Position numbers and translations under genes: made by a program
NCBI RefSeq assembly: GCF_002632585.1
Contig: NZ_NIBV01000001.1
Location: forward strand, 476,595-540,594
Source: Xenorhabdus szentirmaii DSM 16338
GTDB taxonomy: Bacteria > Pseudomonadota > Gammaproteobacteria > Enterobacterales > Enterobacteriaceae
Reading direction: 5' to 3'
DNA length: 64,000 nt
In this document: piece by piece, positions 43,916 through 56,726 of the stretch
Layout of the letters: each line of letters begins with the position of its first letter
Position numbering within the stretch: position 1 is the first letter of the stretch
Notes under the pieces: model-generated
What the model saw: the letters and a program-made list of their open reading frames with translations, nothing else
What the model was told of the DNA's origin: nothing
The model's database searches: none

Positions 43916-44150
43916 AGTTCAGACTCCTTTTAATGCAAAGTGACGCGCTATTCTGCCAAGATCCTGCTGTATTCCCCGATCCTACATCAAGAATCGATAA
44001 TAAATCCCTTGCAGCAAAACGTCTACAGGGGAAACACAAGAAAAGTGAACACAATAATGCTTCAAATCAAAGCATCCCATTGCCCAACTCGCGACAATAC
44101 TCAATGACGACTCAATACCCGGCGGTATCTTACAGATGATATATTCTTTA

Positions 44151-45365
44151 TCAGTCATGAATGAAAAAGCGTTTTATGCGCTGGGTAACGCCCCGCAATT
44201 CCCCATTGCGCAACATGCCGACCAAAATGCCCAGAATCATATATATCACCCCAAGCAACAGCATCATGCCAATATCCTTGAACACACTGTGCAATGGCAA
44301 ACCCATTTGGTTGATGCCTGCGATAGCTTTTGTCGCCCAAGTGGATGGCAATGCCGATGAAATCATCCGTACCCAATCGGGCATCGCCTGAATCGGCCAG
44401 ATTGTCCCCGAAATGTAGAAAATCGGTGTCGTGATAAAAGCCAGTGTCAGGTAGATCATTTCCACACTGCGTAAACATTCCGTCACCAGTTTGCCCAGCC
44501 CCAGTACCGCCAGCAAAAATGGGAATGTCAGTAGCAACAGGAGATAAATCGGTGCATCTTGCCGATATCCCAATACCCACGGCCACAAGACAAAAAAGAT
44601 CACCGACAAAAACAGCCAGATGGGAATTAAGGCAGACAAAGCCCCTAAATAAACGGGCAGCGGTGGCTTACCTTTAGGTGTTCCCCTTATCGCCACACTG
44701 ACACGGATGCTCGCAATCAATAAAGAATGCTGCAAAAGCATCACTAACAAACCGGGAAAAACTATCGCGGCATAGCTGATGCCCGGATTAAATAACCCGA
44801 TTGTTTCTCCACGAATTGGCTGTAGTAAGAGCTTCACCTGTTCTGTGCTGAAACCCGCTTTTAATAGCAGCGCGCCATTAAATTCTGATAAAAGTTGCTG
44901 ATAAGCTAATGCCAGATCCTGTTGTATCTGCCCATTTGCAAGACGGTTAGTTGCATCCCCATAAACAGGAACAGTGACGTTGATTCCGCTCAACAGGTGT
45001 TTTTCAAAATCGACGGGCACGATAATAATGGCAAAAATTTTTCTCAGGAGCATGTCCTGACGCGCATTATCGAGATTGTTATAGCCCTTGACTTCAACTT
45101 TCGCTGTAGAATCAATCCGGCGGATCAATGCCCAGCTCATGTGGCTGTGATCCTGATCGATCACTGCCACCGGCAAATCCCACAAAGAAGGGCGCACATA
45201 CACCAGACTCATGATACACAGCGAGATGATCAAGAGCAGCCAGAGGGGTTTTTCCAGCATCCCGAGAAAGACGTTGCGAAATGTCTGCCAATACAATGTC
45301 CAGTTAACTCGTCCATTATTATCCGCCATCATGCAGCTCCTTCTGATTGAGTAAGACGCACCCAT
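44151..45365 (-). CDS. ABC-2 family transporter permease.
   Basis: 404 aa with TM1, a large periplasmic loop, and five more TM helices. Confidence 0.75.
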   Translation of the reverse strand: MGASYSIRRSCMMADNNGRVNWTLYWQTFRNVFLGMLEKPLWLLLIISLCIMSLVYVRPSLWDLPVAVIDQDHSHMSWALIRRIDSTAKVEVKGYNNLDNARQDMLLRKIFAIIIVPVDFEKHLLSGINVTVPVYGDATNRLANGQIQQDLALAYQQLLSEFNGALLLKAGFSTEQVKLLLQPIRGETIGLFNPGISYAAIVFPGLLVMLLQHSLLIASIRVSVAIRGTPKGKPPLPVYLGALSALIPIWLFLSVIFFVLWPWVLGYRQDAPIYLLLLLTFPFLLAVLGLGKLVTECLRSVEMIYLTLAFITTPIFYISGTIWPIQAMPDWVRMISSALPSTWATKAIAGINQMGLPLHSVFKDIGMMLLLGVIYMILGILVGMLRNGELRGVTQRIKRFFIHD

Positions 45366-46474
45366 AAGCGATTGCGGATCAAGAAACCACAGACCGCAGG
45401 ATAGATTAGCAATACCAGGCAGACATGCAGAATAACGTGTAAAGAGACTTCCCTCAGAAAGATGTCGAACATAGCATTCAACGCATGAGTCAAGGGTTCG
45501 AGGTTAGAAATGATCCTTGCAGGCCATACCATGGAGAGTTCAGGCACAACCATGCCGGAAAAGGCCATTGCAATACTCACCAGCATACCGATTAGGGAGT
45601 AAGCAGTAATGGCGCTGCTGGTAAACGTAAATAACAGCAACCCAATACTTTGTGCCGCAATAACATAGAAAAATCCGACAATTGGCATATACAGGGGATT
45701 GCCTGTCACTTTCGCATCAGAAAAAACAACCAGTGCAGTGATTTCCAAGATTAATAGCAGGGTAAAAATTAAGGTATAGGGCACTAATTTCCCCAACAAT
45801 GCCCCCACGACAGATTTTGTTTTCAAAAGCTGCTTATCTCTGGACATTGTATAAATGGTGCTCGTTACCACAAAAAGCTGCAATAAATGGATGATTGCCG
45901 CAAATTGCTGGTAATAAATATAGCTGCCACTGGCGTTGAACAAGCTGTCATAGGACATCGTGGCCTTGGCTAAAGGAGGCAGTTGTTGACCGATTTCTGA
46001 TGCGATAATTGCACGATATTTTGCATTTGCCTCAGCCATCAATCCGCTGAAGTCCTGAATGGAATAACGCCCGGCACCGTAAAACAGGGCATTGTAATAG
46101 GCGCTTACCGTGGGCTGCCTGCCACTTAACGCATCTTTTTCAAAATTCTCAGGGAAATAAACCAATGCATAATCTTCTGCGCGGCTCAGACGCTCCAGAG
46201 ATTCCGGCAGGTTACTGTCATAAGATTTGATATTCGCATGGGGCGCCGCATTCAAGTCACGGATCAGGGTGCGGGACAACGTACTCTGATCATTATCCAC
46301 AACCGACACTGGCAAGTTGAATAATGTTCCTTCCGAAAAGTTTGCATTGATCAAAATAAACAGCAAAAAAGGAAATAACCAGCTCAGCCAGTGAAATACC
46401 GGATTGTGAAGTGCAGCCTTAAGTTCTCGCGTGAACGCCAGTCCAAAACTGCGCCACGCAAATTTTCTGTTCAT
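45329..46474 (-). CDS. ABC-2 family transporter permease.
   Basis: 381 aa with the same architecture. Confidence 0.75.
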   Translation of the reverse strand: MNRKFAWRSFGLAFTRELKAALHNPVFHWLSWLFPFLLFILINANFSEGTLFNLPVSVVDNDQSTLSRTLIRDLNAAPHANIKSYDSNLPESLERLSRAEDYALVYFPENFEKDALSGRQPTVSAYYNALFYGAGRYSIQDFSGLMAEANAKYRAIIASEIGQQLPPLAKATMSYDSLFNASGSYIYYQQFAAIIHLLQLFVVTSTIYTMSRDKQLLKTKSVVGALLGKLVPYTLIFTLLLILEITALVVFSDAKVTGNPLYMPIVGFFYVIAAQSIGLLLFTFTSSAITAYSLIGMLVSIAMAFSGMVVPELSMVWPARIISNLEPLTHALNAMFDIFLREVSLHVILHVCLVLLIYPAVCGFLIRNRLWVRLTQSEGAA

Positions 46475-46486
46475 CAGGCCACAACC

Positions 46487-47455
46487 TTATTTATCCCAGT
46501 CCCATAATGCACTCATACCCGGACGTAACCCATCAACGGGTTGCAACGGGTATAACCGGATCTCAAAAGTTCTCAGGTCAAAATCCCCTGTCGCACGGGT
46601 GGCGCGTTTTGTCGCATAGTCGCCCATGGGTGCGATATAACGGATTTCGGCTTCAACGTCTTTATCGAGAGCAGGTATACGCAGTGTGATTTTGTCCCCT
46701 TTACGCACTTTCGCCAGAATATCTTCACGCAAGTTATAAACGAAGTAAGCTTGTGGAACGCGAACCAATGTCGCCAACGGGCTATTGGCATTAAAAAGCT
46801 GGCCAACTTCTGCGGGTAATGGCCCGACTTCACCATCAACAGGCGCTTTTACCTGTAGGTCATTACCCTGGATTTTCAATTCACGCAGTTTCTCTTCCGC
46901 TTCATTCACTGCCGCCTGATATTGTTGACGCAATTCAATGCGATCGCCATTTTTCCCTGCATCCAGCTCGGCTTTAGCGCCCAGCATTTTCTGGTAGGCA
47001 ACATCACGTGTATTACGTGCACTATCCAATGCGCTGGCAGAAACATAACCTTTAACTGACACATTGCTCATGCGCTCAAATTCACGCTGTGCATTTTTGT
47101 ATGCGGATTGGGCCTGCGCAAAAATAGACTCTAAGTTACGAATGCTCTCCTCACGGGTACCATGCAGGGAGAGTTCAAGTTTTGCTCTTGCCTGATCACG
47201 GGCAGCTTGTGCTCCGGCAACTTTTGCATCCAGTTCCGGGCTATCCAGACTGACCATCAGTTGCCCCGCCTTAACGTCATCTCCCCGCCCAACATGGAGC
47301 GCAACCACACGACCAGAGGCTTTGGAAGCAATAATGACTTCGGGTGCATCAACTTCGCCCTGCAACAACAAATTCTGGTTGTGAGAACGGAAAAGCACCG
47401 CCATTGCGATCAGGAAAATAATTAATAATATTGTGAAAAGTGTTCTTTTCTTCAT
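46487..47455 (-). CDS. HlyD-family membrane fusion / secretion protein.
   Basis: N-terminal TM, coiled coils and a beta-barrel, and about 322 aa. Confidence 0.8.
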   Translation of the reverse strand: MKKRTLFTILLIIFLIAMAVLFRSHNQNLLLQGEVDAPEVIIASKASGRVVALHVGRGDDVKAGQLMVSLDSPELDAKVAGAQAARDQARAKLELSLHGTREESIRNLESIFAQAQSAYKNAQREFERMSNVSVKGYVSASALDSARNTRDVAYQKMLGAKAELDAGKNGDRIELRQQYQAAVNEAEEKLRELKIQGNDLQVKAPVDGEVGPLPAEVGQLFNANSPLATLVRVPQAYFVYNLREDILAKVRKGDKITLRIPALDKDVEAEIRYIAPMGDYATKRATRATGDFDLRTFEIRLYPLQPVDGLRPGMSALWDWDK

Positions 47456-48404
47456 TATGTTCTGTAAGTCCCAAGCGTACTATCAGGTACTAAGTTCTGT
47501 ACCCAATGGATTTCAAGTTGCAGCGCAACGATAAGGGCGCGGCTCCCAAGAGCCACAGCAAACCGCATGTTGATAAAAACGGTGACTGAGGTGAATGAGC
47601 GTCGCCAGTGAAACGGCAACTTGAAAGACAATGGGTATATGTAAAATTAACAGTGTAGTGTGACACTATTGAGTAACATTCTTTTTAGAAATCCGTGCGC
47701 TTGATCATTGACAAAAATGAAATTCCCATAAAAACACTAAAAATTCACAACTTCACCAAAATGTCAACCTGAAATATGAATTTTAGCATATTTCAATTAA
47801 CACGCCATCATGCAGATGATAGCACCAAGATAATACAAATCATCGAATTAAAATAAAGCAATAAATGAAAATGACAATTATTACCAAGTGTCGATTTATC
47901 AATCACAAAATAACCAACGCATCAGTATGAATAACTTGTAATACAATGTTATTATTTTCTTTATGATAATAATCAAAAAATATAGATTAGCATTAATATC
48001 CATTTACATAAAAAAGAAAGATCGGCAATAAAAAAACCAATAAAATCTAATCGCCGAATAAGGTGATTGAATAGATGCACAGACATACTACAGCTGTACC
48101 GTTATTAAAAGAAACTTTAATATATTTATATCATCACCGGCAGAATAAATGCGCCCAGTTTTGTCTTTTCAAGAATATTATTCAGATATTTCTATCTACA
48201 AAAACTTATTAACCCGACACCAATGCAGAATAAAAAATAAACATCATTTCTGTATCATTAAATTTTTATATTAAATATAAAAATCATAACAGAATATAAT
48301 AATCAAAATAAAATAGTAAACAATAGAAATCTAAACATATCCATACCGTCAATATCATTGCATTTCCATTTTTTTATTATGACGTTCAGATAAATAAGAT
48401 AAAA

Positions 48405-48445
48405 AAAAGGGAGATCACCGTGATCACCCCATTTTTATCTATTAT
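48405..48445. terminator. Bidirectional rho-independent terminator.
   Basis: aaaaaaaaGGGAGATCACCGTGATCACCCCatttttat. Confidence 0.55.
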
Positions 48446-48541
48446 TAGGATATCTACTCTGTTCAAACTATTTAATATGCAATATGTGGTGTTCCCCTAA
48501 GCCTTGACAGTGGTCATTTCAGGTAAAATACAGGCACAGTG

Positions 48542-48626
48542 ATTGAAACTTAGCTATTGAAACTGAGCTATTGAGACTGAGTTATTGAACCTTAGATATT
48601 AGATCCTGATTATTGAACAGATTTTA
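48542..48626. repeat. Degenerate 14-bp tandem repeat (TTGAAACTGAGCTA-like) with about 6 copies, immediately 3' of the recombinase gene.
   Basis: attgaaacttagcta ttgaaactgagcta ttgagactgagtta ttgaaccttagata ttagatcctgatta ttgaacag. Confidence 0.7.
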
Positions 48627-48633
48627 CCAATAA

Positions 48634-49257
48634 TTAAGGCGTGATATATTTACCATGATTAATTTTTAAGTTTTCAGTATGTTGCCATGCTTTTTGAAAA
48701 CGTTCTGGATTGCTGGCGGTATAATGCATGGTATGACGTATATTCCGATGGCCTAAATAATCCTGAATCAGCCGGGTATCCAGCCCCTGATTAGCCAGCT
48801 CAAACCCGCATGAATGCCGTAACTTGTGAGGATGTAATTTGATTGTCAATCCTGCTTGCTCCCCATATCTCCCCATTAATACATATATCCACTGACGCGA
48901 TAACTTTCCTCCTTTACGTGAAGGAAATAACCAGGAAGAAGCCCTGTATATCTTATTGTCATCTCTGACCTGCAACCATTTCAATAGAAGTTTCTGTTCC
49001 GTTGCTGATATAGGGTGCGTTGTCGAGAAACCATTTTTCAATCGCTTTATAAATATGGTTTTTCCTGCAATATCGATATCAGAGATTTTTAATGAAATCA
49101 ACTCACTCACACGTAGGCCATGAATATAAGTCAAGTACAATAAACACTGATCACGCTCTTTATTTACAGAATTAGTTAATACAGAAAAAACACGCTTCCA
49201 TTCGTCCTGTGTGATGTATTTTCTCATGAGATATCTCCAATAAAACGAACCCAGCAC
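48634..49257 (-). CDS. FimB/FimE-family tyrosine site-specific recombinase (phase-variation type).
   Basis: 207 aa. The C-terminal HPHKLRHSCGFELANQGLDTRLIQDYLGHRNIRHTMHYT is nearly identical to the FimB/FimE catalytic region. Confidence 0.85.
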   Translation of the reverse strand: MLGSFYWRYLMRKYITQDEWKRVFSVLTNSVNKERDQCLLYLTYIHGLRVSELISLKISDIDIAGKTIFIKRLKNGFSTTHPISATEQKLLLKWLQVRDDNKIYRASSWLFPSRKGGKLSRQWIYVLMGRYGEQAGLTIKLHPHKLRHSCGFELANQGLDTRLIQDYLGHRNIRHTMHYTASNPERFQKAWQHTENLKINHGKYITP

Positions 49258-50123
49258 AACTCCAACTTCATAATTTAATTCTGAAAAAACACTGGCATAA
49301 TAGGAATATCTTTATGTTTATCATTCTTGCGGCAACAAGCTCCCTCCTGATAAAGAAATATCAGTTAATAATGAATTTAAGATCATTTTTTGATCGACCT
49401 TATTAAAATTTAAACTTCAATAATTATATGACCTGTATGCGATTTTGCAGAATATAAATAATATCTAAATCACAAAAAACAAAATAATAACTAATTGATC
49501 ATAGTTAATCCTGCCTCCAATTTTAAATTAATCGTCCTGATATGCAGTACGATAACTGTACATCAGTTTACTTTCCTATGTTTAGAAAGAGAGGTAAATC
49601 GAAACATACCAAGAAAAATAAACAATTTCGCAACAATTCATATTCTCTTATACTTTATACTGTTTTTATTTTAACCAGACACAGAGTACCTGAGTAATCC
49701 AAAGTAAAATAATAACTATTTGTTTTTGCAAAATTAATCAAATTAAAGGCACTTTTATTATCAAGATAACTTAAAACCAGATCCAACGCCCCTTTTCTTA
49801 TCAACTTCCTTTTTAAACTTCACTAATCAATAAATAAAGTTTTATTGATCGAGAAATGATTTTATGGTGGAATAAAAAACCTGATAATCAGGAAAATGCA
49901 GATCAAAAATCTACTCGTTAATTGCCAAGCAATATTCATTAACCATTTTTTAAAATCTTAGTTCAGGCAATGTCATGTTGTCATTTTTTTAATCCGTAAT
50001 GACGTGATGCTTTCTTCCTGAAAGCCCGACGCATGATTGACGTCAAACAGAAGACAATATTCTAAAACACATGGGTTATTTCTGGCCGTCGCCTGATATT
50101 TTTATTGTTGCAGGTTTATATCT

Positions 50124-53117
50124 ATGAACAAAAAATTCGATAAGCCGTGGCTACCGGATCAGCAATATTTGCTAAAACGTGTAGCTTGGGTAAACATTGT
50201 CACCCAACTTGTATTTCCGGTTGCTTGCGCATTGAATCCTGTTATTGCTAATGCAGAAACACAAACGACTTTTCAAAATGAAATACGCACATTATCAACA
50301 GAGCCGTATATTCTAAAATCAGGGGAAACAGTCAATATTGTTGCCAAGCGGTATGGTTTAACCGTCGACGACTTAAAAAAGATCAATCAACTGCGTACCT
50401 TTGATAAACCTTTTATCGCTCTTGGTGCCGGCAGCGAGATTGATGTCCCTAACCCCCGAACCAATAAATTTTTGCCTTTTAATTATTCGGCACTCAGTCA
50501 GGCTTCCGCTACCGATGAAAAGCCTCGTCGCTTGGCTGAAATAGCTTCCCGGCTGGGGAGTTTATTATCCCATGGGAATATTGAGCATAGTGCAACAAGT
50601 CAGTTGAGTCATCTGGCAATGGGAGAAGCCAATCAACAAATTCAAAATTGGTTAGGGCGCTATGGTACAGCCCGTGTGCAAGCCAATATCGACAATCATG
50701 GTCATTTAAATGGCAGCCAGCTCGATATGCTTTTGCCTTTGCATGATACTCGCTCTCAAATGGCTTTCACCCAATTTGGCCTGCGCCGTATCGATAAACG
50801 CAGTACTTTTAATGTCGGCGTCGGGCAACGCCATTTTTTTGATGACTGGATGCTGGGTTACAATGCTTTTCTTGACCATGACTTAACCGGTGATAATACT
50901 CGTTTTGGCCTTGGTGCAGAATATGCCCGTGATTATCTGAAATTAGGCGTGAACAGTTACTTGCGTTTAAGTCACTGGAAAGAATCCCGCATGTTGACAG
51001 ATTATGATGAGCGCCCTGCCAACGGTTTCGATCTGAGGGCACAAGGCTATGTCCCTTCTTTGCCTCAACTTGGCGGGAAATTAGTGTATGAGCACTATTT
51101 CGGGGATGAAGTCGGATTAATCAATAAAGATCACCGGGGAAAAAATCCGTCTGCTTTTACAGCGGGAATTAATTATACCCCTATTCCTTTACTGACTTTC
51201 GAAATTGACCGCAAGCAAGCGGGATCAGGTCATGGGGAAACACAATTCAATGTGGAACTGAATTATGAAATCGGTACTCCGTGGGCAAAACAGATTGATC
51301 CGGATGCAGTCACACTCAAGCGCACCCTGCAAGGCGGTCGTTACGATTTAGTCGATCGCAATAATCAGATCGTTTTGGAGTACCGTAAACGTGAAGTCAT
51401 CTCCCTGACAATGGATAATTCTCTGATCGGTTATGAGGGAGATACCAAACCTCTTCATATTAGCATCAAGAGCAAATATGGGCTTAAAGAGATCCAGTGG
51501 AATGCCCCAAGGCTATTTGCCAACGGCGGCATAATCAAATCTCAGGATGGAATACATTACTCACTGACTTTGCCTGAATACCAAGCGCAGGGAAACAATA
51601 CCTACACCGTAGACGCGATTGCCTACGATAAAAAAGGAAATGCTTCCAAGCAAGCAGAAATGCAACTGCAAGTATTGAGTGAAGAAGCCAGTGCCACTCA
51701 GTCTAGTTTTACAGCAAAAGATAAAAAATTAATCGCTGATGGGCATTCAAATACGCTTCTCATACTGACACTGAAAAATAAAGAAGGAAATCCTGTCCGC
51801 GGGCAGGCCTCAGATATTACCTTAACCACCAGCGGGTTAGGCGGGGAAGGCAGCGATCCCAAAATCGAAGCGATGAAAGAGTCTCAGCCAGGTATTTACC
51901 AGTCCCAGCTTACTGCAGGCAAAAAGACCGGAATACTGAAAATTACACCACGAGTACACGGTGTGACCATCAAACCGGTTGAAATCGCGTTCGTGCATCC
52001 TAATACCCCCATTGTCAAAAATCTGGCTCTCGTTGGTAAGTTAGAGATGGGGCAAAAATTGAGTGCGATTTATACCTTTGACGCCAATCATGGCGATACG
52101 GTAGATAAATCGCGCTATATATGGGGCAATAAGGGGAATACTGATATCACCAAAGGTCATATCATCTCTGAGTCCGGCAAAATTCCTGACTATACCCTGA
52201 CTCTGGAAGATGCAGGAACAGTAAAAGAGATTGCAGTACAGGCTCAGAATGAGCTTGGGCTCACCGGTAATACGGCAGTCGTTGATACCAGCATGAGTGC
52301 CGGACAAGGTAATCATACTCATGATGGCGGGAAAAACGGCACTGTCAGAGGGCTTGCCGATAAAATGACAGTCACGATGAGTGACACGAAAGTCAAAAGA
52401 GATGAGCCAATTACCCTGAAAATAGAAACATTCAATCACGGGCAGTCAGTCAGAAATGTCTCTGTCAACGTGAAAGCTGTTCAGGCAATGAACCGTCAGA
52501 AGCATGATGAGAAAATCACAATACTGCTCAATGGCAACCTTGGAGAAACACAAGCTTATACCGATGATCAAGGTGTACTTTCTCTTCCCGTGGCAGATCC
52601 GTTCGGGCTTGGAGTAAAAACGACACTGTCAGTCACAGCAGATGGCACGGCACCTTCTGAGACGAGAGATGTCACTTTCACGGTTGCAACCAGCCCTGAT
52701 GTTGATGTGGCAAACTTTTGGGGACATATGGCTGATACGATCACCGTTAATGGTATGACTTTCACACGCCCACTACTGGAAACTGAGATAGTCAAGAATG
52801 GAGATCACAGGCATGAAACTATTATTACTGAGTATGGTGAAATCTGGCCACGCCGCATGAATACAGGCGCCAATTGGTTCTGTAAGAAGGAAACCGATAC
52901 TGTACCGACAAAAGACGAATTACTGAGTCTGTACCAGACCTATCCTGAAAACAGAATTCATGAGCTATTCGGCTGGCCACAACACCGCTCTTATCGTACT
53001 TCAACACCGGCAATTAATGATAAAGGGAAAACTGCCCATTATGCCGTGAACATCAGCGATGGATACGCGCATGTCATTGATGAAGATGTCACTGATTATG
53101 TGACCTGTAAGCAATAA
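50124..53117 (+). CDS. Intimin/invasin-family inverse autotransporter adhesin (LysM, beta-barrel, Big repeats, C-terminal lectin-like domain).
   Basis: 997 aa with a long signal peptide, a LysM block YILKSGETVNIVAKRYGLTVDDLKKINQL, Big-like repeats and a C-terminal Cys pair. Confidence 0.75.
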   Translation: MNKKFDKPWLPDQQYLLKRVAWVNIVTQLVFPVACALNPVIANAETQTTFQNEIRTLSTEPYILKSGETVNIVAKRYGLTVDDLKKINQLRTFDKPFIALGAGSEIDVPNPRTNKFLPFNYSALSQASATDEKPRRLAEIASRLGSLLSHGNIEHSATSQLSHLAMGEANQQIQNWLGRYGTARVQANIDNHGHLNGSQLDMLLPLHDTRSQMAFTQFGLRRIDKRSTFNVGVGQRHFFDDWMLGYNAFLDHDLTGDNTRFGLGAEYARDYLKLGVNSYLRLSHWKESRMLTDYDERPANGFDLRAQGYVPSLPQLGGKLVYEHYFGDEVGLINKDHRGKNPSAFTAGINYTPIPLLTFEIDRKQAGSGHGETQFNVELNYEIGTPWAKQIDPDAVTLKRTLQGGRYDLVDRNNQIVLEYRKREVISLTMDNSLIGYEGDTKPLHISIKSKYGLKEIQWNAPRLFANGGIIKSQDGIHYSLTLPEYQAQGNNTYTVDAIAYDKKGNASKQAEMQLQVLSEEASATQSSFTAKDKKLIADGHSNTLLILTLKNKEGNPVRGQASDITLTTSGLGGEGSDPKIEAMKESQPGIYQSQLTAGKKTGILKITPRVHGVTIKPVEIAFVHPNTPIVKNLALVGKLEMGQKLSAIYTFDANHGDTVDKSRYIWGNKGNTDITKGHIISESGKIPDYTLTLEDAGTVKEIAVQAQNELGLTGNTAVVDTSMSAGQGNHTHDGGKNGTVRGLADKMTVTMSDTKVKRDEPITLKIETFNHGQSVRNVSVNVKAVQAMNRQKHDEKITILLNGNLGETQAYTDDQGVLSLPVADPFGLGVKTTLSVTADGTAPSETRDVTFTVATSPDVDVANFWGHMADTITVNGMTFTRPLLETEIVKNGDHRHETIITEYGEIWPRRMNTGANWFCKKETDTVPTKDELLSLYQTYPENRIHELFGWPQHRSYRTSTPAINDKGKTAHYAVNISDGYAHVIDEDVTDYVTCKQ

Positions 53118-53322
53118 TCTGTTTATTGGCGATTAGCGAAAAAAACTGACGAAAATATCCGCCCTGATCTGGGCGGATCACCTTCCCCACACTGATATTG
53201 GTTGATTTATTACCAATCCCTTGCCAACTTCTGGCACACTCTATCTGCCAATGTCCTATTGACGAGGCTAAATTCCACCTTTGATAATGGCTGATTCAAT
53301 TTATTAATCACTCAATAAAAAT

Positions 53323-55020
53323 ATGTACGAATTTAACCTCGTGTTGTTATTGCTTCAGCAAATGTGTGTCTATCTGGTCATCGCCTGGCTGCTGAGCAAA
53401 ACACCACTATTCATCCCCTTGCTGCAAGTTACTGTACGCTTGCCACACAAGTTGATGTGCTACATTGTTTTTTCCATTTTTTGCATTATGGGCACTTATT
53501 TCGGGCTGAACGTCAATGATTCCATCGCGAATACCCGAGCTATCGGTGCGGTACTGGGAGGCTTTCTCGGCGGCCCAACGGTAGGGGCAATGGTGGGATT
53601 TACCGGAGGGTTGCACCGTTATTCTCTCGGAGGGATGACTGCATTCAGTTGTATGGTATCCACAATTGTGGAAGGCGTGTTGGGTGGCCTGGTACACAGT
53701 TATCTCATGAAGCGGGGGCAGATTAATAAGTTATTGAATCCTTGGACAGCCGCCATTGTGACGTTCTTCGCTGAATGCGCCCAAATGGGCATAATTTTGC
53801 TACTGGCTACCCCTTTCGATGAAGCGCTGAGTTTGGTGAAAGATATCGCGGCTCCCATGATCATCGCTAACAGTATTGGCTCCGCCATGTTTATTCGCAT
53901 TTTGTTGGATAGACGCGCTATTTTCGAAAAATATACCAGTGCTTTTTCTGCTCAGGCGCTGAAAATTGCTGTCTGCACAGAAGGCATACTGCGTAAGGGG
54001 TTCAACGAAGACAACAGTATGCGTGTAGCCAAAGTGATTTATCAGGAGCTGGAAATAGGCGCTGTCGCTATCACTGACAGGGAAAAATTACTGGCATTTA
54101 TCGGCATTGGTTCCGATCACCATTTGCCCGGAACGCCCATAGCTTCGGCGCAATCACGCCAATCCATTGAAAACAATGAAGTCGTATATGCTGATGGTAA
54201 TGAGACTCCTTATTGTTGTTCTCTTGACCCAACTTGTAAACTTGGCTCTGCTCTGGTGATCCCTTTGCGAGGGGAAAATCAGCAAGTGCTCGGCAGCATC
54301 AAACTTTACGAGGCCAAAAATCGTTTATTCAGCTCAATCAACCGAACATTGGGTGAGGGTATTGCCAGTTTGCTTTCTGCCCAAATTCTTGCCGGACAGT
54401 ATGAACGCAATAAGCAATCTTTACTGCAATCAGAAGTGAAGCTGCTTCATGCGCAAGTGAACCCTCACTTTTTATTTAATGCCCTGAATACATTACAGGC
54501 AGTGATCCGACGGGATAAACAGCAAGCGGGCCAATTGGTACAATATCTTTCAACATTTTTCCGTAAAAATTTGAAGCGGCCGGAAGAAATCGCCACACTG
54601 GAGAATGAAATAGAGCATGTAAATGCTTACTTACAAATAGAGAAGGCGCGCTTCTGTGAACACCTTCAAGTCACCATAGAGATACCAGAATTCCTGAGCA
54701 CGGCAAAATTACCTGCATTCTCTCTGCAACCCATGGTAGAGAATGCCATTAAACACGGTACATCACAGTTGCTTGATATAGGAAAGATTACCATCAGAGC
54801 TTATCAGGAAGATAATTTGCTAACAGTAGAGATAGAAGATAATGCGGGGCTTTATTGTCCCAAACATGCAGGAGATGGACTTGGGATGAGTCTGGTAGAT
54901 AAACGTCTACAGCTTCGTTATGGTAAGCAGTATGGCATCAGTGTTCATTGCCAATCAGAAGAATTTACCCGTGTCATTTTACGTTTACCATTGGAAAAAG
55001 AGGCTAAAGAGGCAGCGTAA
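53323..55020 (+). CDS. btsS: LytS-type sensor histidine kinase (5TM-Lyt, GAF, HisKA/HATPase).
   Basis: 565 aa. The partner is a close YehT/BtsR homolog. Confidence 0.8.
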
Positions 55021-55022
55021 AG

Positions 55023-55745
55023 ATGAATATATTGATTGTTGATGATGAGCCGTTGGCTCGTGAGAATCTACGTTGTCTATTGGAAAAAGAAACAGATATT
55101 CAGATCATGGGGGAATGTGCCAACGCCGTAGAAGCCATTGGTGCTATCCATCGCCTGAAACCGGATGTCGTTTTCCTCGATATCCAGATGCCCCGCATTA
55201 CCGGTCTGGAAATGGTAGGAATGCTCGATCCGGAGCATCGCCCTTATATCGTTTTTCTGACGGCTTTTGATGAATATGCAGTGCAAGCCTTTGAAGAACA
55301 TGCGTTCGATTATTTATTGAAGCCGCTGGAAAAAGGGCGGCTGAGCAAAACACTACAACGGCTGCGTTCTGGTTATCAGAAGCAGAATCTGGCGGAATTA
55401 CAACGCGAAGATGAGCAACTGAAATATATTCCTTGCACAGGCCGCAGCCGGATATGGCTGATGCCGCTGGATGATGTTTTGTATGTCACTTCCCGCCTGA
55501 GCGGTGTATATGTGATGAGTGCCAGCGGGCAAGAGGGTTTTACGGAGTTGACTCTGCGTACACTGGAAAGCCGTACGTCACTGATCCGCTGTCACCGGCA
55601 ATATTTGGTCAACATGATTCATTTGCGAGAAATTGTGTTTGGGGAAAGCGGGCAAGCAGAGCTGGTGCTGAGGAATAATGAACAGATCCCGGTTAGCCGT
55701 CGTTATTTGAAACCCCTGAAAGAGGCGTTAGGACTAAATTACTAA
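55023..55745 (+). CDS. btsR: LytTR-family response regulator.
   Basis: Near-collinear with E. coli YehT/BtsR ([14 protein letters not shown]...[35 protein letters not shown]). Confidence 0.85.
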
Positions 55746-55920
55746 GGAACGGAAATTCCTACAATGTTCAGAACTGTTTAACTCACTCGCTGAGTTCCTG
55801 CTTCAACGGGTAGCCTGACTTGCACCGTTCCTCTACAGGCAAGCATGATGTACCGCGCCACCAAGATATTGCGCGCGCCGTTTATAGCAGTGTTTTATGT
55901 ATGACCACAGCCACCCATAG

Positions 55921-55950
55921 CCACATAACCACATAACCACATAACCACAT
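55921..55950. repeat. Octamer tandem repeat (CCACATAA) x3-4.
   Basis: ccacataaccacataaccacataaccacat. Confidence 0.8.
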
Positions 55951-56264
55951 GCACCATAACTACCTGCGCCATAACGACATGCGCTATATGTCACATATTC
56001 GAACCGACTTGTGACTGACGATTTTCTTTTACAGTGAGATTTTCTTTCACAGTGAGGAGATAAACAGTTCACAAAAGATGTTAACAAATAGCCTGGATAT
56101 CCCGGCGGTTATTCACATTGAGCAAAAAGGAAATATGATATAAAGCGCACTGCATTGAAACATGACGTTGAAGCTTGAAGCAATGGTTGGAAAACTTAGC
56201 TGAATTACAGAGTAGCCAACTGGTGGCGATTGTCTCTTTCATATCTGATTTCTAACATAAGATT

Positions 56265-56726
56265 GTGGCAATTTTGCCCCAAAAATTCGGTGTTGATATG
56301 TCATTCAATTCTGACAAGGAAAAACGCTTGATATATTTTTATCTTAAGATAAAGACAAACAGGATGATCCTGAAAAACATTAATACCCAGAAAGAATTTG
56401 AGATTGAAGGAAACTTTAGTTCGTCCCGTTTGCTGATTGGTGAGTTTCATGACGCCCACCGTCAATTAGTCAAATTACTGAGACGGCATCACTTCCGAAA
56501 AGGGCTCAGATGGTTTTTAGATTGGAGAAATCGGATCATTATCCATCCTCTGGAGAAAAGCGAAGGCGGTTTATGTTCTGTGGAACAACGGATATTGACA
56601 GAAGTCGTACACATCAGTTTCCGTGGCTATATCAATGAAGCCGTCATCTATGAAGGTGAACACTTACTTTCAGATGAAGAAGTTAAGGCGCAATTAAATA
56701 AGCGATTCCCTATCAAATGGAGCTAA
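56265..56726 (+). CDS. Hypothetical protein.
   Basis: 153-aa ORF with no recognisable motif. The start is uncertain. Confidence 0.4.
   Translation: MAILPQKFGVDMSFNSDKEKRLIYFYLKIKTNRMILKNINTQKEFEIEGNFSSSRLLIGEFHDAHRQLVKLLRRHHFRKGLRWFLDWRNRIIIHPLEKSEGGLCSVEQRILTEVVHISFRGYINEAVIYEGEHLLSDEEVKAQLNKRFPIKWS

What the first reader, a model, noticed from the sequence alone, without database searches (positions are those of the whole stretch)
48634..50123. FimB/FimE-type recombinase divergent from an intimin/invasin-family adhesin, pointing to a possible phase-variable invertible switch
The recombinase is near-identical in its catalytic C-terminus to the fim switch recombinases, but no fimbrial genes are nearby. 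Instead an 866-bp AT-rich, non-coding spacer separates it from a 997-aa LysM/inverse-autotransporter adhesin. The spacer contains four CCTGATA cores, each with its own flanking small palindrome, at 49349, 49547, 49879 and 50087 (e.g. ctgataaagaaatatcag, cctgataatcagg). It also has a 9-bp hairpin (atcaataaa taaagt tttattgat, 49826-49849). I could not identify a clean pair of terminal inverted repeats by eye. An invertible promoter controlling a type Ve adhesin would be unusual.
Basis: partly seen in the sequence, partly recalled or inferred. Interest (0 to 1): 0.6.

Follow-up and report, generated by a model that had tools for sequence, protein, structure and literature searches.

The report
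Fim-type invertase beside Xenorhabdus adhesin gene
An intact FimB/FimE-type DNA invertase gene sits back to back with an invasin-like adhesin gene in many Xenorhabdus species, but I found no positive sign in any genome that the DNA between them flips, so the proposed on/off switch remains an untested idea.

Summary
The window is Xenorhabdus szentirmaii. It holds a 197-aa FimB/FimE-family tyrosine invertase (48634-49227, minus strand) with intact catalytic residues and dN/dS of about 0.07. A 997-aa LysM/inverse-autotransporter adhesin (50124-53117) lies divergent from it across an 896-bp spacer of about 29% GC. No fimbrial genes were found among the ORFs scanned.

The invertible switch has no positive support. 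The spacer is collinear in all 27 recombinase-carrying sequences compared (10 species). A conserved-inverted-repeat scan scored 9.64 of 12, against 9.45 for its mirror control. Three species have lost the recombinase yet keep the adhesin and its upstream blocks in the same orientation.

The idea is not refuted either. The E. coli fimS switch shows its minority orientation in only 5.6% of complete genomes. Published transcript maps of this strain show no sense transcript for the recombinase in culture.

My best reading (about 0.5) is two separate modules: a fixed, conserved adhesin control region, and an invertase whose target is unidentified. A cryptic, strongly biased local switch remains possible (about 0.22). 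Either way this is a new member of a known kind, of modest interest.

The parts
48409..48430 (.). G+C-rich hairpin (gggagatcaccgtgatcacccc) with an A-run before it and a T-run after it. It is the terminator of the recombinase transcription unit and is possibly bidirectional.
   Evidence: The sequence is. A homologous hairpin (accggaaagatcac.gtgatct.tccggtttt) is conserved 140-240 nt after the recombinase stop codon in all 10 species. Logan contigs end at 48392 and 48443.
48542..48618 (.). Tandem repeat of a 14-nt unit (ATTGAAACTGAGCT, about 4-5.5 copies), just downstream of the recombinase stop codon.
   Evidence: Found by TRF. Sister strains L002/L003/L005 have one unit fewer. X. mauleonii and X. 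santafensis have a different repeat of about 16 nt in the same place.
48634..49227 (-). FimB/FimE-family tyrosine DNA invertase, 197 aa, start codon ATG at 49227.
   Evidence: PF00589 E=5e-47. NF007370 221.9 bits against a cut-off of 221. The catalytic R-K-H-R-H-Y residues are invariant. dN/dS is 0.06-0.09 at dS 0.7-1.3. GC content is 37%.
49347..49364 (.). Block A: the palindrome CTGATA-AAGAAA-TATCAG, 120-137 bp upstream of the recombinase ATG. It is a possible operator or recombinase core-type site, and is the left arm of inverted-repeat candidate 2.
   Evidence: It is found only in genomes that have the recombinase, and is decayed in X. poinarii, which lost the gene.
49381..49396 (.). GATCATTTTTTGATC, the left arm of inverted-repeat candidate 1. 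Its partner lies at 49845-49860 inside block E.
   Evidence: (I21). It matches 12/14 here, 13/14 in X. littoralis, 14/14 in X. bovienii and 9-11/14 in the others. It is not above the control.
49417..49485 (-). Block B: about 65 nt conserved in species that carry the recombinase. It contains an invariant TATAAT on the minus strand (49428 to 49423). I infer that this is the recombinase promoter.
   Evidence: Alignments. The hexamer is destroyed in recombinase-less X. poinarii. No TSS was mapped here, so the promoter assignment is an inference.
49490..49630 (.). Hypervariable spacer with species-specific insertions and deletions. It is about 100 bp shorter in X. szentirmaii and X. littoralis.
49706..49728 (.). 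Block D (aaaataATAACTATTTGTTTTT), a conserved adhesin-side element.
   Evidence: 12 of 23 positions are invariant in 14 sequences, including the recombinase-less species.
49835..49881 (.). Block E (AAAGTtaTATTGATC..aAaTGATTTTATGtTGGAATAAAAAaCC), the most conserved non-coding element. It contains a GATC and overlaps the 49826-49849 hairpin.
   Evidence: 35 of 47 positions are invariant in 14 sequences from 13 species, three of which lack the recombinase.
49880..49892 (-). Palindrome CCTGATAATCAGG followed, on the minus strand, by a T-run. It is terminator-like, specific to X. szentirmaii, and lies near the 3' end of the antisense transcript.
   Evidence: The published minus-strand transcript_00341 ends at window 49908. 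The palindrome is not conserved in other species.
49899..49986 (.). Block F (cAGATCAAt, 49899-49907) and block G (aTCAGGCAATg.cgTGTTGTCAt, 49962-49986), conserved adhesin-side elements. F carries a GATC in 11 of the 14 aligned sequences.
50090..50123 (+). Block H: cgCCTGATA-T(5-7)-ATTGTTrCAGGTTTAT, which includes the adhesin ribosome-binding site. It is the right arm of inverted-repeat candidate 2.
   Evidence: The CCTGAT part is degenerate in X. nematophila and X. griffiniae, which lack block A and the recombinase.
50124..53117 (+). Type Ve (inverse autotransporter) adhesin, 997 aa: LysM, IAT beta-barrel, Invasin_D3/Big_1, BIg21 and an InvE_AD C-terminal adhesion domain.
53323..55745 (+). LytS-type histidine kinase (565 aa) and LytTR response regulator (240 aa), of the BtsS/BtsR (YehU/YehT) type. 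They are syntenic with the adhesin in most species.
   Evidence: The RefSeq product name 'response regulator YehT' appears in the published GFF.

Best explanation
The locus is best read as two vertically inherited modules that sit back to back. It does not look like a recognisable fim-like invertible promoter.

Module 1 (about 48400-49490) is a functional FimB/FimE-family invertase gene. It has its own terminator, a 5' palindrome (block A) and a promoter-like block B with an invariant TATAAT.

Module 2 (about 49640-53117) is the type Ve adhesin with a fixed upstream control region (blocks C/D to H). That region is kept, in the same orientation, whether or not the invertase is present. A hypervariable stretch separates the two modules.

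On this reading the adhesin is controlled conventionally. AT-rich upstream DNA with strongly conserved protein-binding blocks keeps it low in culture and responds to trans-acting regulators. The invertase's recombination substrate is not identifiable in this spacer; it is either elsewhere in the genome or is a very short cryptic site.

Shown by the data: the identity and integrity of both genes, purifying selection on the invertase, collinearity in every genome compared, block conservation without the recombinase, and low transcription with no mapped TSS in culture.

Inferred: the promoter assignment of block B, regulation by DNA-binding proteins, and the absence of local inversion.
For: 1. 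Orientation. Recombinase, spacer and adhesin are collinear in 5 szentirmaii-group assemblies, 2 Logan contigs, 8 other species and 12 X. bovienii sequences. The independent NIBV assembly is also collinear, with every checked gene at a constant offset of +476594.

2. Inverted repeats. A position-wise scan over 11 sequences (12-nt arms, with the recombinase CDS and the adhesin 5' end included) gave a best mean of 9.64/12. The mirror-repeat control reached 9.45.

3. Striking repeats in this strain are not conserved. This applies to the 30-nt pair flanking the recombinase and to the 9-bp GC-rich pair between the CDS and the ribosome-binding site. The latter shows no compensating change.

4. Species without the recombinase. 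X. nematophila, X. griffiniae and X. poinarii have full-length adhesin orthologues at the same site but no recombinase (tblastn finds no hit at E<=10). They keep window 49695/49638/49286 through 50123 in the same orientation. Block E has 35 of 47 positions invariant in all 14 sequences, although synonymous sites in the neighbouring gene are near saturation (dS 0.7-1.3).

5. Blocks A and B occur only with the recombinase, and are visibly decayed in X. poinarii, which lost it. This ties them to expression of the recombinase.

6. Published data for this strain. Cappable-seq lists no TSS between window 45017 and 51449. The only coverage over the spacer is a low plus-strand transcript, 48457-52976 (bioRxiv 10.1101/2020.08.24.265355).
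Against: Every well-studied recombinase of this family (FimB/FimE, FimX, IpuA/IpuB, MrpI) has an invertible element next to its gene (PMC6083910, and general knowledge of the family). An invertase under strong purifying selection (omega about 0.07) must have some substrate. Its position next to this adhesin is kept in at least 10 species.

The nearest relatives outside the genus also sit beside type V adhesin genes.

Two candidate repeat pairs exist. Candidate 1 is a perfect 14-mer in X. bovienii, and candidate 2 is a perfect 15-mer in X. littoralis. The CCTGAT half of block H is degenerate in exactly the two species that lack block A.

Uniform orientation is weak evidence, since fimS itself is 94.4% in one orientation. 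In addition, no sense transcript over the recombinase is listed for culture.
Confidence: 0.5

Rival explanations
1. A genuine but cryptic, strongly biased fim-like switch. The invertase flips part of the spacer between short (7-15 bp) inverted repeats, and this turns adhesin transcription on or off.

Candidate 1: ATCATTTtTtGATC (49382-49395) against its complement in block E (49846-49859). This gives an element of about 465 bp carrying block B, so the block-B promoter would face the adhesin after inversion.

Candidate 2: block A (CTGATA-N6-TATCAG, 49347-49364) against CTGATATTT... (50093-50107). This gives an element of about 740 bp that would swap the two divergent control regions.

All sequenced cultures would be in the recombinase-silent, adhesin-low orientation.
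For: The family membership and intact active site of the recombinase support it, as do strong purifying selection and the conserved divergent pairing in at least 10 species.

The architecture resembles mrpI-mrpA and ipuA/B-ipuS-upaE, whose repeats are 7-21 bp long; one ipuS repeat lies inside the recombinase gene.

The two candidates were the top (9.64) and a further high-ranking (9.09) hit of the conserved-repeat scan. Candidate 1 is 14/14 in X. bovienii and candidate 2 is 15/15 in X. littoralis. Block A looks like a tyrosine-recombinase core site (6-6-6 palindrome).

No TSS is mapped for the adhesin, and no sense transcript over the recombinase is listed, in culture. fimS itself shows its minority orientation in only 5.6% of genomes.
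Against: None of 27 sequences is inverted.

Neither candidate exceeds the mirror control (9.45).

Candidate 1 keeps only 4-6 nt of continuous identity in X. vietnamensis, X. beddingii and PB62.4. Candidate 2 fails in X. mauleonii, X. santafensis, PB62.4 and X. bovienii, and in this strain its 6-nt spacers differ (TTTCTT against TTTTTA).

The right arm of candidate 1 lies in block E, which is equally conserved in species without the recombinase.

The two best candidates are mutually exclusive. That shows such repeats arise easily in this A/T-run-rich DNA.
Confidence: 0.22
2. The invertase acts in trans on a switch elsewhere in the chromosome, for example a fimbrial or other surface-structure promoter. 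Its position beside the adhesin is merely inherited synteny.
For: FimB-family enzymes do act on unlinked switches: IpuA, FimX and FimE act at ipuS and fimS. There is no recognisable local repeat pair. The gene has been lost three times without loss of the adhesin or of its control region. The recombinase has a lower GC content (37%) than its neighbours, which suggests separate acquisition.
Against: No fimbrial or other candidate target was found among the ORFs scanned in the 64-kb window. The rest of the genome could not be searched here. In the known cases, each trans-acting enzyme also has a linked switch of its own.
Confidence: 0.18
3. Any phase variation of the adhesin is epigenetic rather than recombinational. 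Conserved GATC sites in blocks E, F and G would be protected from Dam methylation by a regulator, as at pap, agn43 or opvAB. The invertase would be irrelevant to this.
For: The GATC in block E (49847) is invariant in all 14 aligned sequences. The one in block F (49901) is present in 11 of 14; both X. bovienii sequences and X. griffiniae lack it. A third, in block G, is present in most species. The sites are spaced 54-63 bp apart. Xenorhabdus has Dam, and X. nematophila has 77 unmethylated GATC sites enriched in promoter regions (PMC9570324).
Against: GATC density in the spacer (6 in 896 bp) is not clearly above the window average of 4.3 per kb. The conserved GATCs may be conserved simply because they lie in conserved blocks. 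The list of unmethylated sites was not available, and that paper mentions no invasin or adhesin.
Confidence: 0.1

Closest known systems
ipuA/ipuB - ipuS - ipuR/upaE of uropathogenic E. coli CFT073 (PMC6083910)
   Same: FimB-like tyrosine invertases lie next to a non-fimbrial, type V secreted adhesin gene rather than a fimbrial operon. The repeats in that system are short (7 bp) and hard to see by eye, and one of them lies inside the recombinase gene. The nearest non-Xenorhabdus relatives of this recombinase (about 60% identity) also sit beside autotransporter genes, often as a pair of recombinases.
   Different: There, inversion was shown experimentally and the adhesin is a classical (type Va) autotransporter behind a LuxR-type regulator. 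Here the adhesin is an inverse (type Ve) autotransporter, there is a single recombinase, it is divergent rather than overlapping the switch, and no inversion or convincing repeat pair has been found.
mrpI - mrpA switch of Proteus mirabilis, and fimB/fimE - fimS - fimA of E. coli
   Same: The recombinase family is the same (51% identity to FimB, with a nearly identical C-terminal catalytic region). As at mrpI-mrpA, the recombinase gene is transcribed divergently from the adhesin gene, with the regulatory DNA between them (geometry recalled from the literature, not tested here).
   Different: Those systems control chaperone-usher fimbriae through elements of 251-314 bp bounded by 9-21-bp repeats that are conserved between strains. 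In fimS both orientations are visible in public genomes (5.6% minority orientation). Here the spacer is 896 bp, has no conserved repeat pair and has a single orientation in every genome.
Invasin/intimin-type inverse autotransporters (Yersinia InvA-E and YrIlm, E. coli IatA-D/YeeJ, Salmonella SinH)
   Same: The domain plan is LysM, then the IAT beta-barrel, then Ig-like repeats, then a C-terminal adhesion domain. Full-length relatives at 45-48% identity occur in Yersinia and Raoultella.
   Different: The protein scores below the cut-off of every named NCBIfam subfamily (YrIlm 477 against 750; Ilp, IatC, intimin and SinH are all also below cut-off). None of the papers my searches found describes control of a type Ve adhesin by an invertase.

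Membership tests
FimB/FimE-family tyrosine DNA invertase | Small (about 180-200 aa) single-domain tyrosine recombinase that matches the curated family model | tested here: met
   The protein is 197 aa. PF00589 covers residues 3-175. NF007370 scores 221.9 bits against a cut-off of 221, so it passes only just. The FimE-type model NF007371 scores 196.5 against 222 and is not met.
FimB/FimE-family tyrosine DNA invertase | Intact catalytic residues (Arg, Lys, His-x-x-Arg, His, Tyr) | tested here: met
   R39, K64, H134, R137, H160 and Y169 are invariant in the alignment with E. coli FimB and eight other homologues. dN/dS is 0.06-0.09.
FimB/FimE-family tyrosine DNA invertase | Catalyses inversion of a DNA segment | not testable with these tools
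   This needs PCR, read-level analysis or an in vivo inversion assay.
fim-like invertible promoter switch (fimS, hyxS, ipuS, mrp) | A pair of inverted repeats (7-21 bp) bounding a segment of 0.25-1 kb next to the recombinase gene | tested here: inconclusive
   The best conserved pair scores 9.64/12, against 9.45 for the mirror control. Candidates are perfect in single species only (14 bp in X. bovienii, 15 bp in X. littoralis) and degenerate in others. Repeats of 7-9 bp cannot be told from chance in this DNA.
fim-like invertible promoter switch (fimS, hyxS, ipuS, mrp) | Both orientations of the segment are found in populations or genomes | tested here: not met
   None of 27 recombinase-positive sequences from 10 species is inverted, and the 3 recombinase-less species share the same orientation. 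As a caveat, fimS shows its minority orientation in only 5.6% of E. coli genomes. Raw reads were not examined.
fim-like invertible promoter switch (fimS, hyxS, ipuS, mrp) | A promoter inside the invertible segment drives the adjacent gene in one orientation | tested here: inconclusive
   Consensus scans found no more promoter-like sites than shuffles did (14 against 16.0). Published Cappable-seq data show no TSS between window 45017 and 51449. The invariant TATAAT in block B (minus strand) is only an inference.
Type Ve (inverse autotransporter) adhesin | N-terminal IAT beta-barrel, with or without LysM, followed by Ig-like passenger domains and a C-terminal adhesion domain | tested here: met
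   IAT_beta E=7e-106 (residues 141-414), LysM E=7e-5, Invasin_D3 E=4e-16, BIg21 E=2e-22 and InvE_AD E=1.5e-42.
Named inverse-autotransporter subfamilies (YrIlm, Ilp, IatC, intimin, SinH) | Score at or above the curated NCBIfam cut-off | tested here: not met
   The scores against cut-offs are 477 vs 750, 454 vs 1125, 444 vs 2400, 390 vs 1400 and 273 vs 999.
Dam/GATC epigenetic phase switch (pap, agn43, opvAB type) | Clustered, conserved GATC sites within regulator-binding sites in the promoter region, and differentially methylated | tested here: inconclusive
   The GATC in block E is invariant in all 14 sequences, the one in block F is present in 11 of 14, and the one in block G is present in most species. 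The methylation state is unknown. GATC density is not clearly elevated.

The most novel reading that the evidence does not exclude
The Xenorhabdus FimB-type invertase flips a cryptic segment of the spacer that is strongly biased towards one orientation. Most likely this would be the ~465-bp piece between 49382-49395 and 49846-49859, which carries the block-B promoter, or else the whole ~740-bp control region between block A and block H. That would make an inverse-autotransporter (type Ve) adhesin phase-variable. I found no described case of an invertible promoter controlling a type Ve adhesin, so it would be the first known to me. It would also be a recombinational on/off switch for a host-colonisation factor in a nematode symbiont and insect pathogen, one that is silent in laboratory culture and therefore invisible in genome assemblies.
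Probability: 0.22. Interest if true: 0.55.

Novelty: new member of a known kind. Interest (0 to 1): 0.3.

Why it matters
Xenorhabdus alternates between a nematode gut and an insect body cavity, and it is known for phenotypic variation. A recombinase-driven on/off switch on a large surface adhesin would offer a concrete, testable mechanism for heterogeneity in host attachment.

It would also extend fim-type invertible promoters from fimbriae and classical autotransporters to inverse autotransporters.

If, as I think more likely, the spacer does not invert, two smaller points remain. First, FimB-family invertase genes can persist under strong selection with no obvious linked switch. Second, adjacency alone is not enough to call an invertible promoter. 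The fimS calibration is a useful caution: only 5.6% of complete E. coli genomes show the minority orientation, so assembly-level comparison misses most switching even at a classic switch.

Tried and rejected
1. The 30-nt, 80% inverted repeat flanking the recombinase (48240-48269 / 49834-49863). It is present only in X. szentirmaii; the other eight species tested score 17-19 of 30, which is background.

2. The 9-bp GC-rich repeat ACCTGCAAC (48968) / GTTGCAGGT (50107), inside the recombinase CDS and just upstream of the adhesin start. Most other species have GTTACAGGT upstream of the adhesin but TTGCAAG or similar in the CDS, so there is no compensating change.

3. A k=7 positional repeat scan recovered only A-run/T-run pairs.

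4. A wider inverted-repeat search over 44000-56500 found nothing that brackets the locus.

5. I looked for a patch of suppressed synonymous change in the recombinase CDS that would betray an embedded site, as in ipuA. The longest invariant run is 11 nt at the start codon, and the high third-position identity at codons 38-50 is matched by several other windows.

6. I looked for natural orientation variants among relatives. Two Budvicia-type contigs (the third carries a deletion) and two metagenome contigs with paired recombinases are collinear. Plasmid-borne homologues (55-60% identity) sit in unrelated contexts.

7. Looking up the 49-aa spacer ORF to find contigs with it inverted returned only the reference contig.

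8. A metagenome scan for block E found no match.

9. Rfam found nothing credible in 47000-50600; the only hit was a sub-threshold MicX match.

10. Literature searches on Xenorhabdus with invertible elements, inverse autotransporters or Dam found nothing on this locus.

11. The direct repeat TCAGGCAAT (downstream of the recombinase, and in block G) could in principle act as an excision site. It is shared by only a few species, and the recombinase-less genomes are not its excision products.
Full report
**What is there**

The window is 100% identical over 47300-50300 to contig CBXF010000083.1 of assembly GCA_000531455.1. All close relatives are Xenorhabdus. It is also collinear with the X. szentirmaii DSM 16338 assembly NZ_NIBV01000001.1 at a constant offset of +476594.

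The ORF 48634-49257 (-) is real. All orthologues begin at the ATG at 49227 (MRKYITQ), which has a GGAG nine bases upstream. The protein is therefore 197 aa and the non-coding spacer is 896 bp.

The protein is a small tyrosine recombinase (PF00589, E=5e-47). It just reaches the NCBIfam cut-off for 'tyrosine-type DNA invertase' of the FimB type (221.9 against 221). In an alignment with E. coli FimB and eight other homologues, the catalytic Arg, Lys, His-x-x-Arg, His and Tyr are invariant. The C-terminal 35 residues are almost identical, and overall identity to FimB is 51%.

The divergent gene 50124-53117 encodes a 997-aa inverse autotransporter with LysM, IAT_beta (E=7e-106), Invasin_D3/Big_1, BIg21 and an InvE_AD adhesion domain. 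It falls below the cut-offs of all named subfamilies.

The neighbours are a HlyD/ABC-2 operon, a LytS/LytTR two-component system, nrdDG, deaD, nlpI, pnp and truB. I found no fimbrial genes among the 15 ORFs scanned, which lie between 30.4 and 63.9 kb. The spacer and the 1.2 kb downstream of the recombinase are 26-29% GC, against 44-49% around them. The recombinase gene itself is 37% GC.

**The motifs**

CCTGATA occurs at 49346, 49536, 49880 and 50092, all on the + strand. Four copies in 896 bp is far more than chance. None of 5000 dinucleotide shuffles reached 4, and this is the only one of 71 equal-sized bins of the window with 3 or more. The heptamer is, however, generally over-represented in the window (26 copies against 6.9 expected).

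Only the first and last copies are shared by about five other species, and three lineages have none. The four-fold pattern is therefore a feature of this species, not a conserved device. All four copies are direct repeats, not inverted ones.

**Is the pairing conserved?**

Yes. The recombinase, a spacer of 0.87-1.0 kb and the adhesin orthologue occur in the same arrangement in these genomes:
- X. littoralis, X. vietnamensis, X. beddingii, X. lircayensis, X. mauleonii, X. santafensis and X. hominickii;
- strain PB62.4;
- 12 X. bovienii sequences;
- 4 further szentirmaii-group assemblies.

The recombinase is under strong purifying selection. dN/dS is 0.06-0.09 while dS is 0.7-1.3, which is close to saturation.

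**Does the spacer invert?**

I compared every recombinase-positive sequence I could obtain: 27 sequences from 10 species. All are collinear across the recombinase, the spacer and the adhesin.

To find out what that is worth, I calibrated on the classic switch. I built a 300-bp query from MG1655 spanning the left junction of fimS, whose TTGGGGCCA repeats I located in the sequence. It matches in full in 4,451 of 4,714 complete E. coli genomes. It is split in the other 263 (5.6%), as expected for the opposite orientation. At that rate, 27 uniform assemblies would occur with probability of about 0.21. The uniformity therefore counts against a switch, but only weakly.

**Inverted repeats**

In this strain the longest pairs are these:
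- a 30-nt, 80% pair flanking the recombinase (48240-69 / 49834-63);
- an 18-nt pair within the spacer (49378-95 / 49847-64);
- a 19-nt pair with a perfect GC-rich 9-mer, between the recombinase CDS (48968) and the adhesin ribosome-binding region (50107).

The 30-nt pair is absent from the eight other species tested. The 9-mer shows no compensating change in other species.

I then scored, for every pair of alignment positions across 11 sequences, the mean complementarity of 12-nt arms. The recombinase CDS and 150 nt of the adhesin gene were included. The best pair (49384 / 49858) reached 9.64. A control that counts mirror repeats instead of complementary ones reached 9.45. Nothing stands out.

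The two best-placed candidates are as follows.

1. ATCATTTTTTGATC, against its complement inside block E. It matches 14/14 in X. bovienii, 13/14 in X. littoralis and 12/14 here. In X. vietnamensis, X. beddingii and PB62.4 it keeps only 4-6 nt of continuous identity.

2. Block A (CTGATA-N6-TATCAG), against CTGATATTT... in front of the adhesin start. It matches 15/15 in X. littoralis and 9 bp here, and it is poor in four lineages. In this strain the two 6-nt central regions differ (TTTCTT against TTTTTA). For a tyrosine recombinase that would be expected to block strand exchange; this last point rests on general knowledge of these enzymes.

The two candidates exclude each other. Together they show how easily such repeats arise in DNA rich in A- and T-runs. 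The ipuS precedent matters here: its repeats are 7 bp long and one lies inside the recombinase gene (PMC6083910). A real site of that size could not be recognised by these methods.

**Species without the recombinase**

X. nematophila, X. griffiniae and X. poinarii have full-length adhesin orthologues at the same chromosomal site but no recombinase gene and no remnant of one (tblastn finds no hit at E<=10). They retain the adhesin-proximal part of the spacer in the same orientation:
- X. nematophila from window position 49695;
- X. griffiniae from 49638;
- X. poinarii additionally 49286-49487.

The conserved blocks D (49706-49728), E (49835-49881), F and G are as well kept there as in recombinase-carrying species. 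Block E has 35 of 47 positions invariant in all 14 sequences. These blocks therefore belong to the adhesin's own control region and are not primarily recombinase sites.

By contrast, block A and block B (49417-49485) occur only with the recombinase. Block B carries an invariant TATAAT on the recombinase strand. Both blocks are decayed in X. poinarii. I infer that they serve recombinase expression.

One detail fits candidate 2. The CCTGAT half of block H is degenerate in exactly the two species that lack block A. With only two cases, this is no more than a hint.

**Expression data**

A preprint on this very strain (bioRxiv 10.1101/2020.08.24.265355) provides a Cappable-seq TSS table and an ANNOgesic transcript annotation. 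After converting coordinates, these show the following:
- No TSS is listed between window 45017 and 51449.
- Two antisense TSSs lie inside the adhesin gene, at 51449 and 51753 on the minus strand.
- A low-coverage plus-strand transcript runs from 48457 to 52976. It is antisense through the whole recombinase gene, then crosses the spacer and covers most of the adhesin gene.
- A minus-strand transcript runs from 53156 down to 49908.
- No minus-strand transcript covers the recombinase.

Both genes are thus weakly expressed, or silent, in culture. That is compatible with silencing of AT-rich DNA and equally with an 'off' phase. It also weakens the argument from uniform assemblies, because an unexpressed invertase cannot flip anything.

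The Logan contigs that end at 48392 and 48443 fit the start of that transcript and the conserved hairpin at 48409-48430. They may therefore be RNA-seq assemblies, but I could not confirm this.

**Relatives elsewhere**

The nearest non-Xenorhabdus recombinases (about 60% identity; Budvicia and uncultured enterobacteria) lie next to classical autotransporter genes, usually with a second recombinase. A Raoultella orthologue of the adhesin has a recombinase 49% identical to this one about 670 bp downstream. An association of this recombinase branch with type V adhesins is thus plausible. None of these loci showed two orientations either.

**Verdict**

I started from a high prior, because recombinases of this family normally have a linked switch. 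I then discounted for three things: the uniform orientation (a factor of about 0.2), the absence of a conserved repeat, and the independence of the adhesin control region from the recombinase. That leaves the probability of a functional local invertible element at about 0.2-0.25.

The most likely description (about 0.5) is two back-to-back modules, with a fixed adhesin control region and an invertase whose substrate is still unknown. Action in trans at a distant switch (about 0.18) and GATC-based epigenetic control (about 0.1) remain open.

If the switch were shown to be real, it would be a new member of a known kind: the first invertible promoter found on a type Ve adhesin. It would not be a new principle.

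Noticed in passing
window 47500-47637: A 138-bp imperfect palindrome (22-nt arms, 86% complementary) lies in the long 5' leader of the HlyD/ABC-2 operon. The published transcript of that operon runs up to window 47859. From memory it resembles an ERIC-type intergenic repeat. A 38-bp piece of it recurs downstream of the adhesin gene in X. littoralis (L008 1997-2034).
   Followed up: partly
window 48542-48618: A 14-nt tandem repeat (ATTGAAACTGAGCT) lies just after the recombinase stop codon, and its copy number differs between closely related strains (L002, L003 and L005 have one unit fewer). X. mauleonii and X. santafensis carry a different repeat of about 16 nt at the same place.
   Followed up: partly
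window 48457-52976 (+) and 48446-48451: The published annotation has a plus-strand transcript that starts 177 nt beyond the recombinase stop codon. It runs antisense through the whole recombinase gene and on into the adhesin gene. Its start lies 6 nt after TAGGAT, which aligns with TAGAAT-like hexamers in other species. An antisense RNA or transcriptional interference may therefore keep the invertase off.
   Followed up: partly
window 47985-48272 (+): ANNOgesic annotated an intergenic sRNA candidate (sRNA_00012, 288 nt) in the 26-29% GC gap between the HlyD operon and the recombinase terminator. This stretch of about 1.2 kb has no ORF of 60 aa or more and is poorly conserved between species.
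   Followed up: no
window 51449 and 51753 (-): Two Cappable-seq TSSs lie inside the adhesin gene on the antisense strand (306 and 234 read starts). A minus-strand transcript covers the whole gene and ends at 49908, next to the terminator-like CCTGATAATCAGG plus T-run.
   Followed up: no
whole window: The heptamer CCTGATA is about 3.8-fold over-represented across the 64-kb window (26 copies against 6.9 expected, and none of 100 shuffles reached 26), not only in the spacer.
   Followed up: no
L039 7642-8196 (Raoultella ornithinolytica); L018-L022: A 989-aa orthologue of the adhesin in Raoultella has a FimB-like recombinase (49% identical to this one) about 670 bp downstream and convergent. The closest recombinase homologues in Budvicia and in metagenomic enterobacteria sit next to classical autotransporter genes, usually as a pair of recombinases. 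This suggests a wider link between this recombinase branch and type V adhesins.
   Followed up: partly
L046 (E. coli K-12 fimE-fimA) and E. coli genomes: Calibration result: 263 of the 4,714 complete E. coli genomes that have the region (5.6%) carry fimS in the orientation opposite to MG1655. Assembly-level comparison therefore rarely reveals even a classic invertible switch.
   Followed up: yes
window 49835-49881: Within block E, three successive 11-nt units start with TGA/TGG (TGATCAATAAA, TGATTTTATGT and TGGAATAAAAA in the consensus), which is one helical turn apart. This may be a multi-site binding region for a regulator. The adjacent LytTR-type response regulator is an untested candidate.
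   Followed up: no
window 49099-49128 (recombinase codons 34-43): Synonymous positions are almost invariant across species in TAT ATT CAT GGC CTA CGT GTG AGT GAG TTG, around the catalytic Arg39. Several other windows of the gene reach similar values, so I did not treat this as an embedded DNA site.
   Followed up: partly
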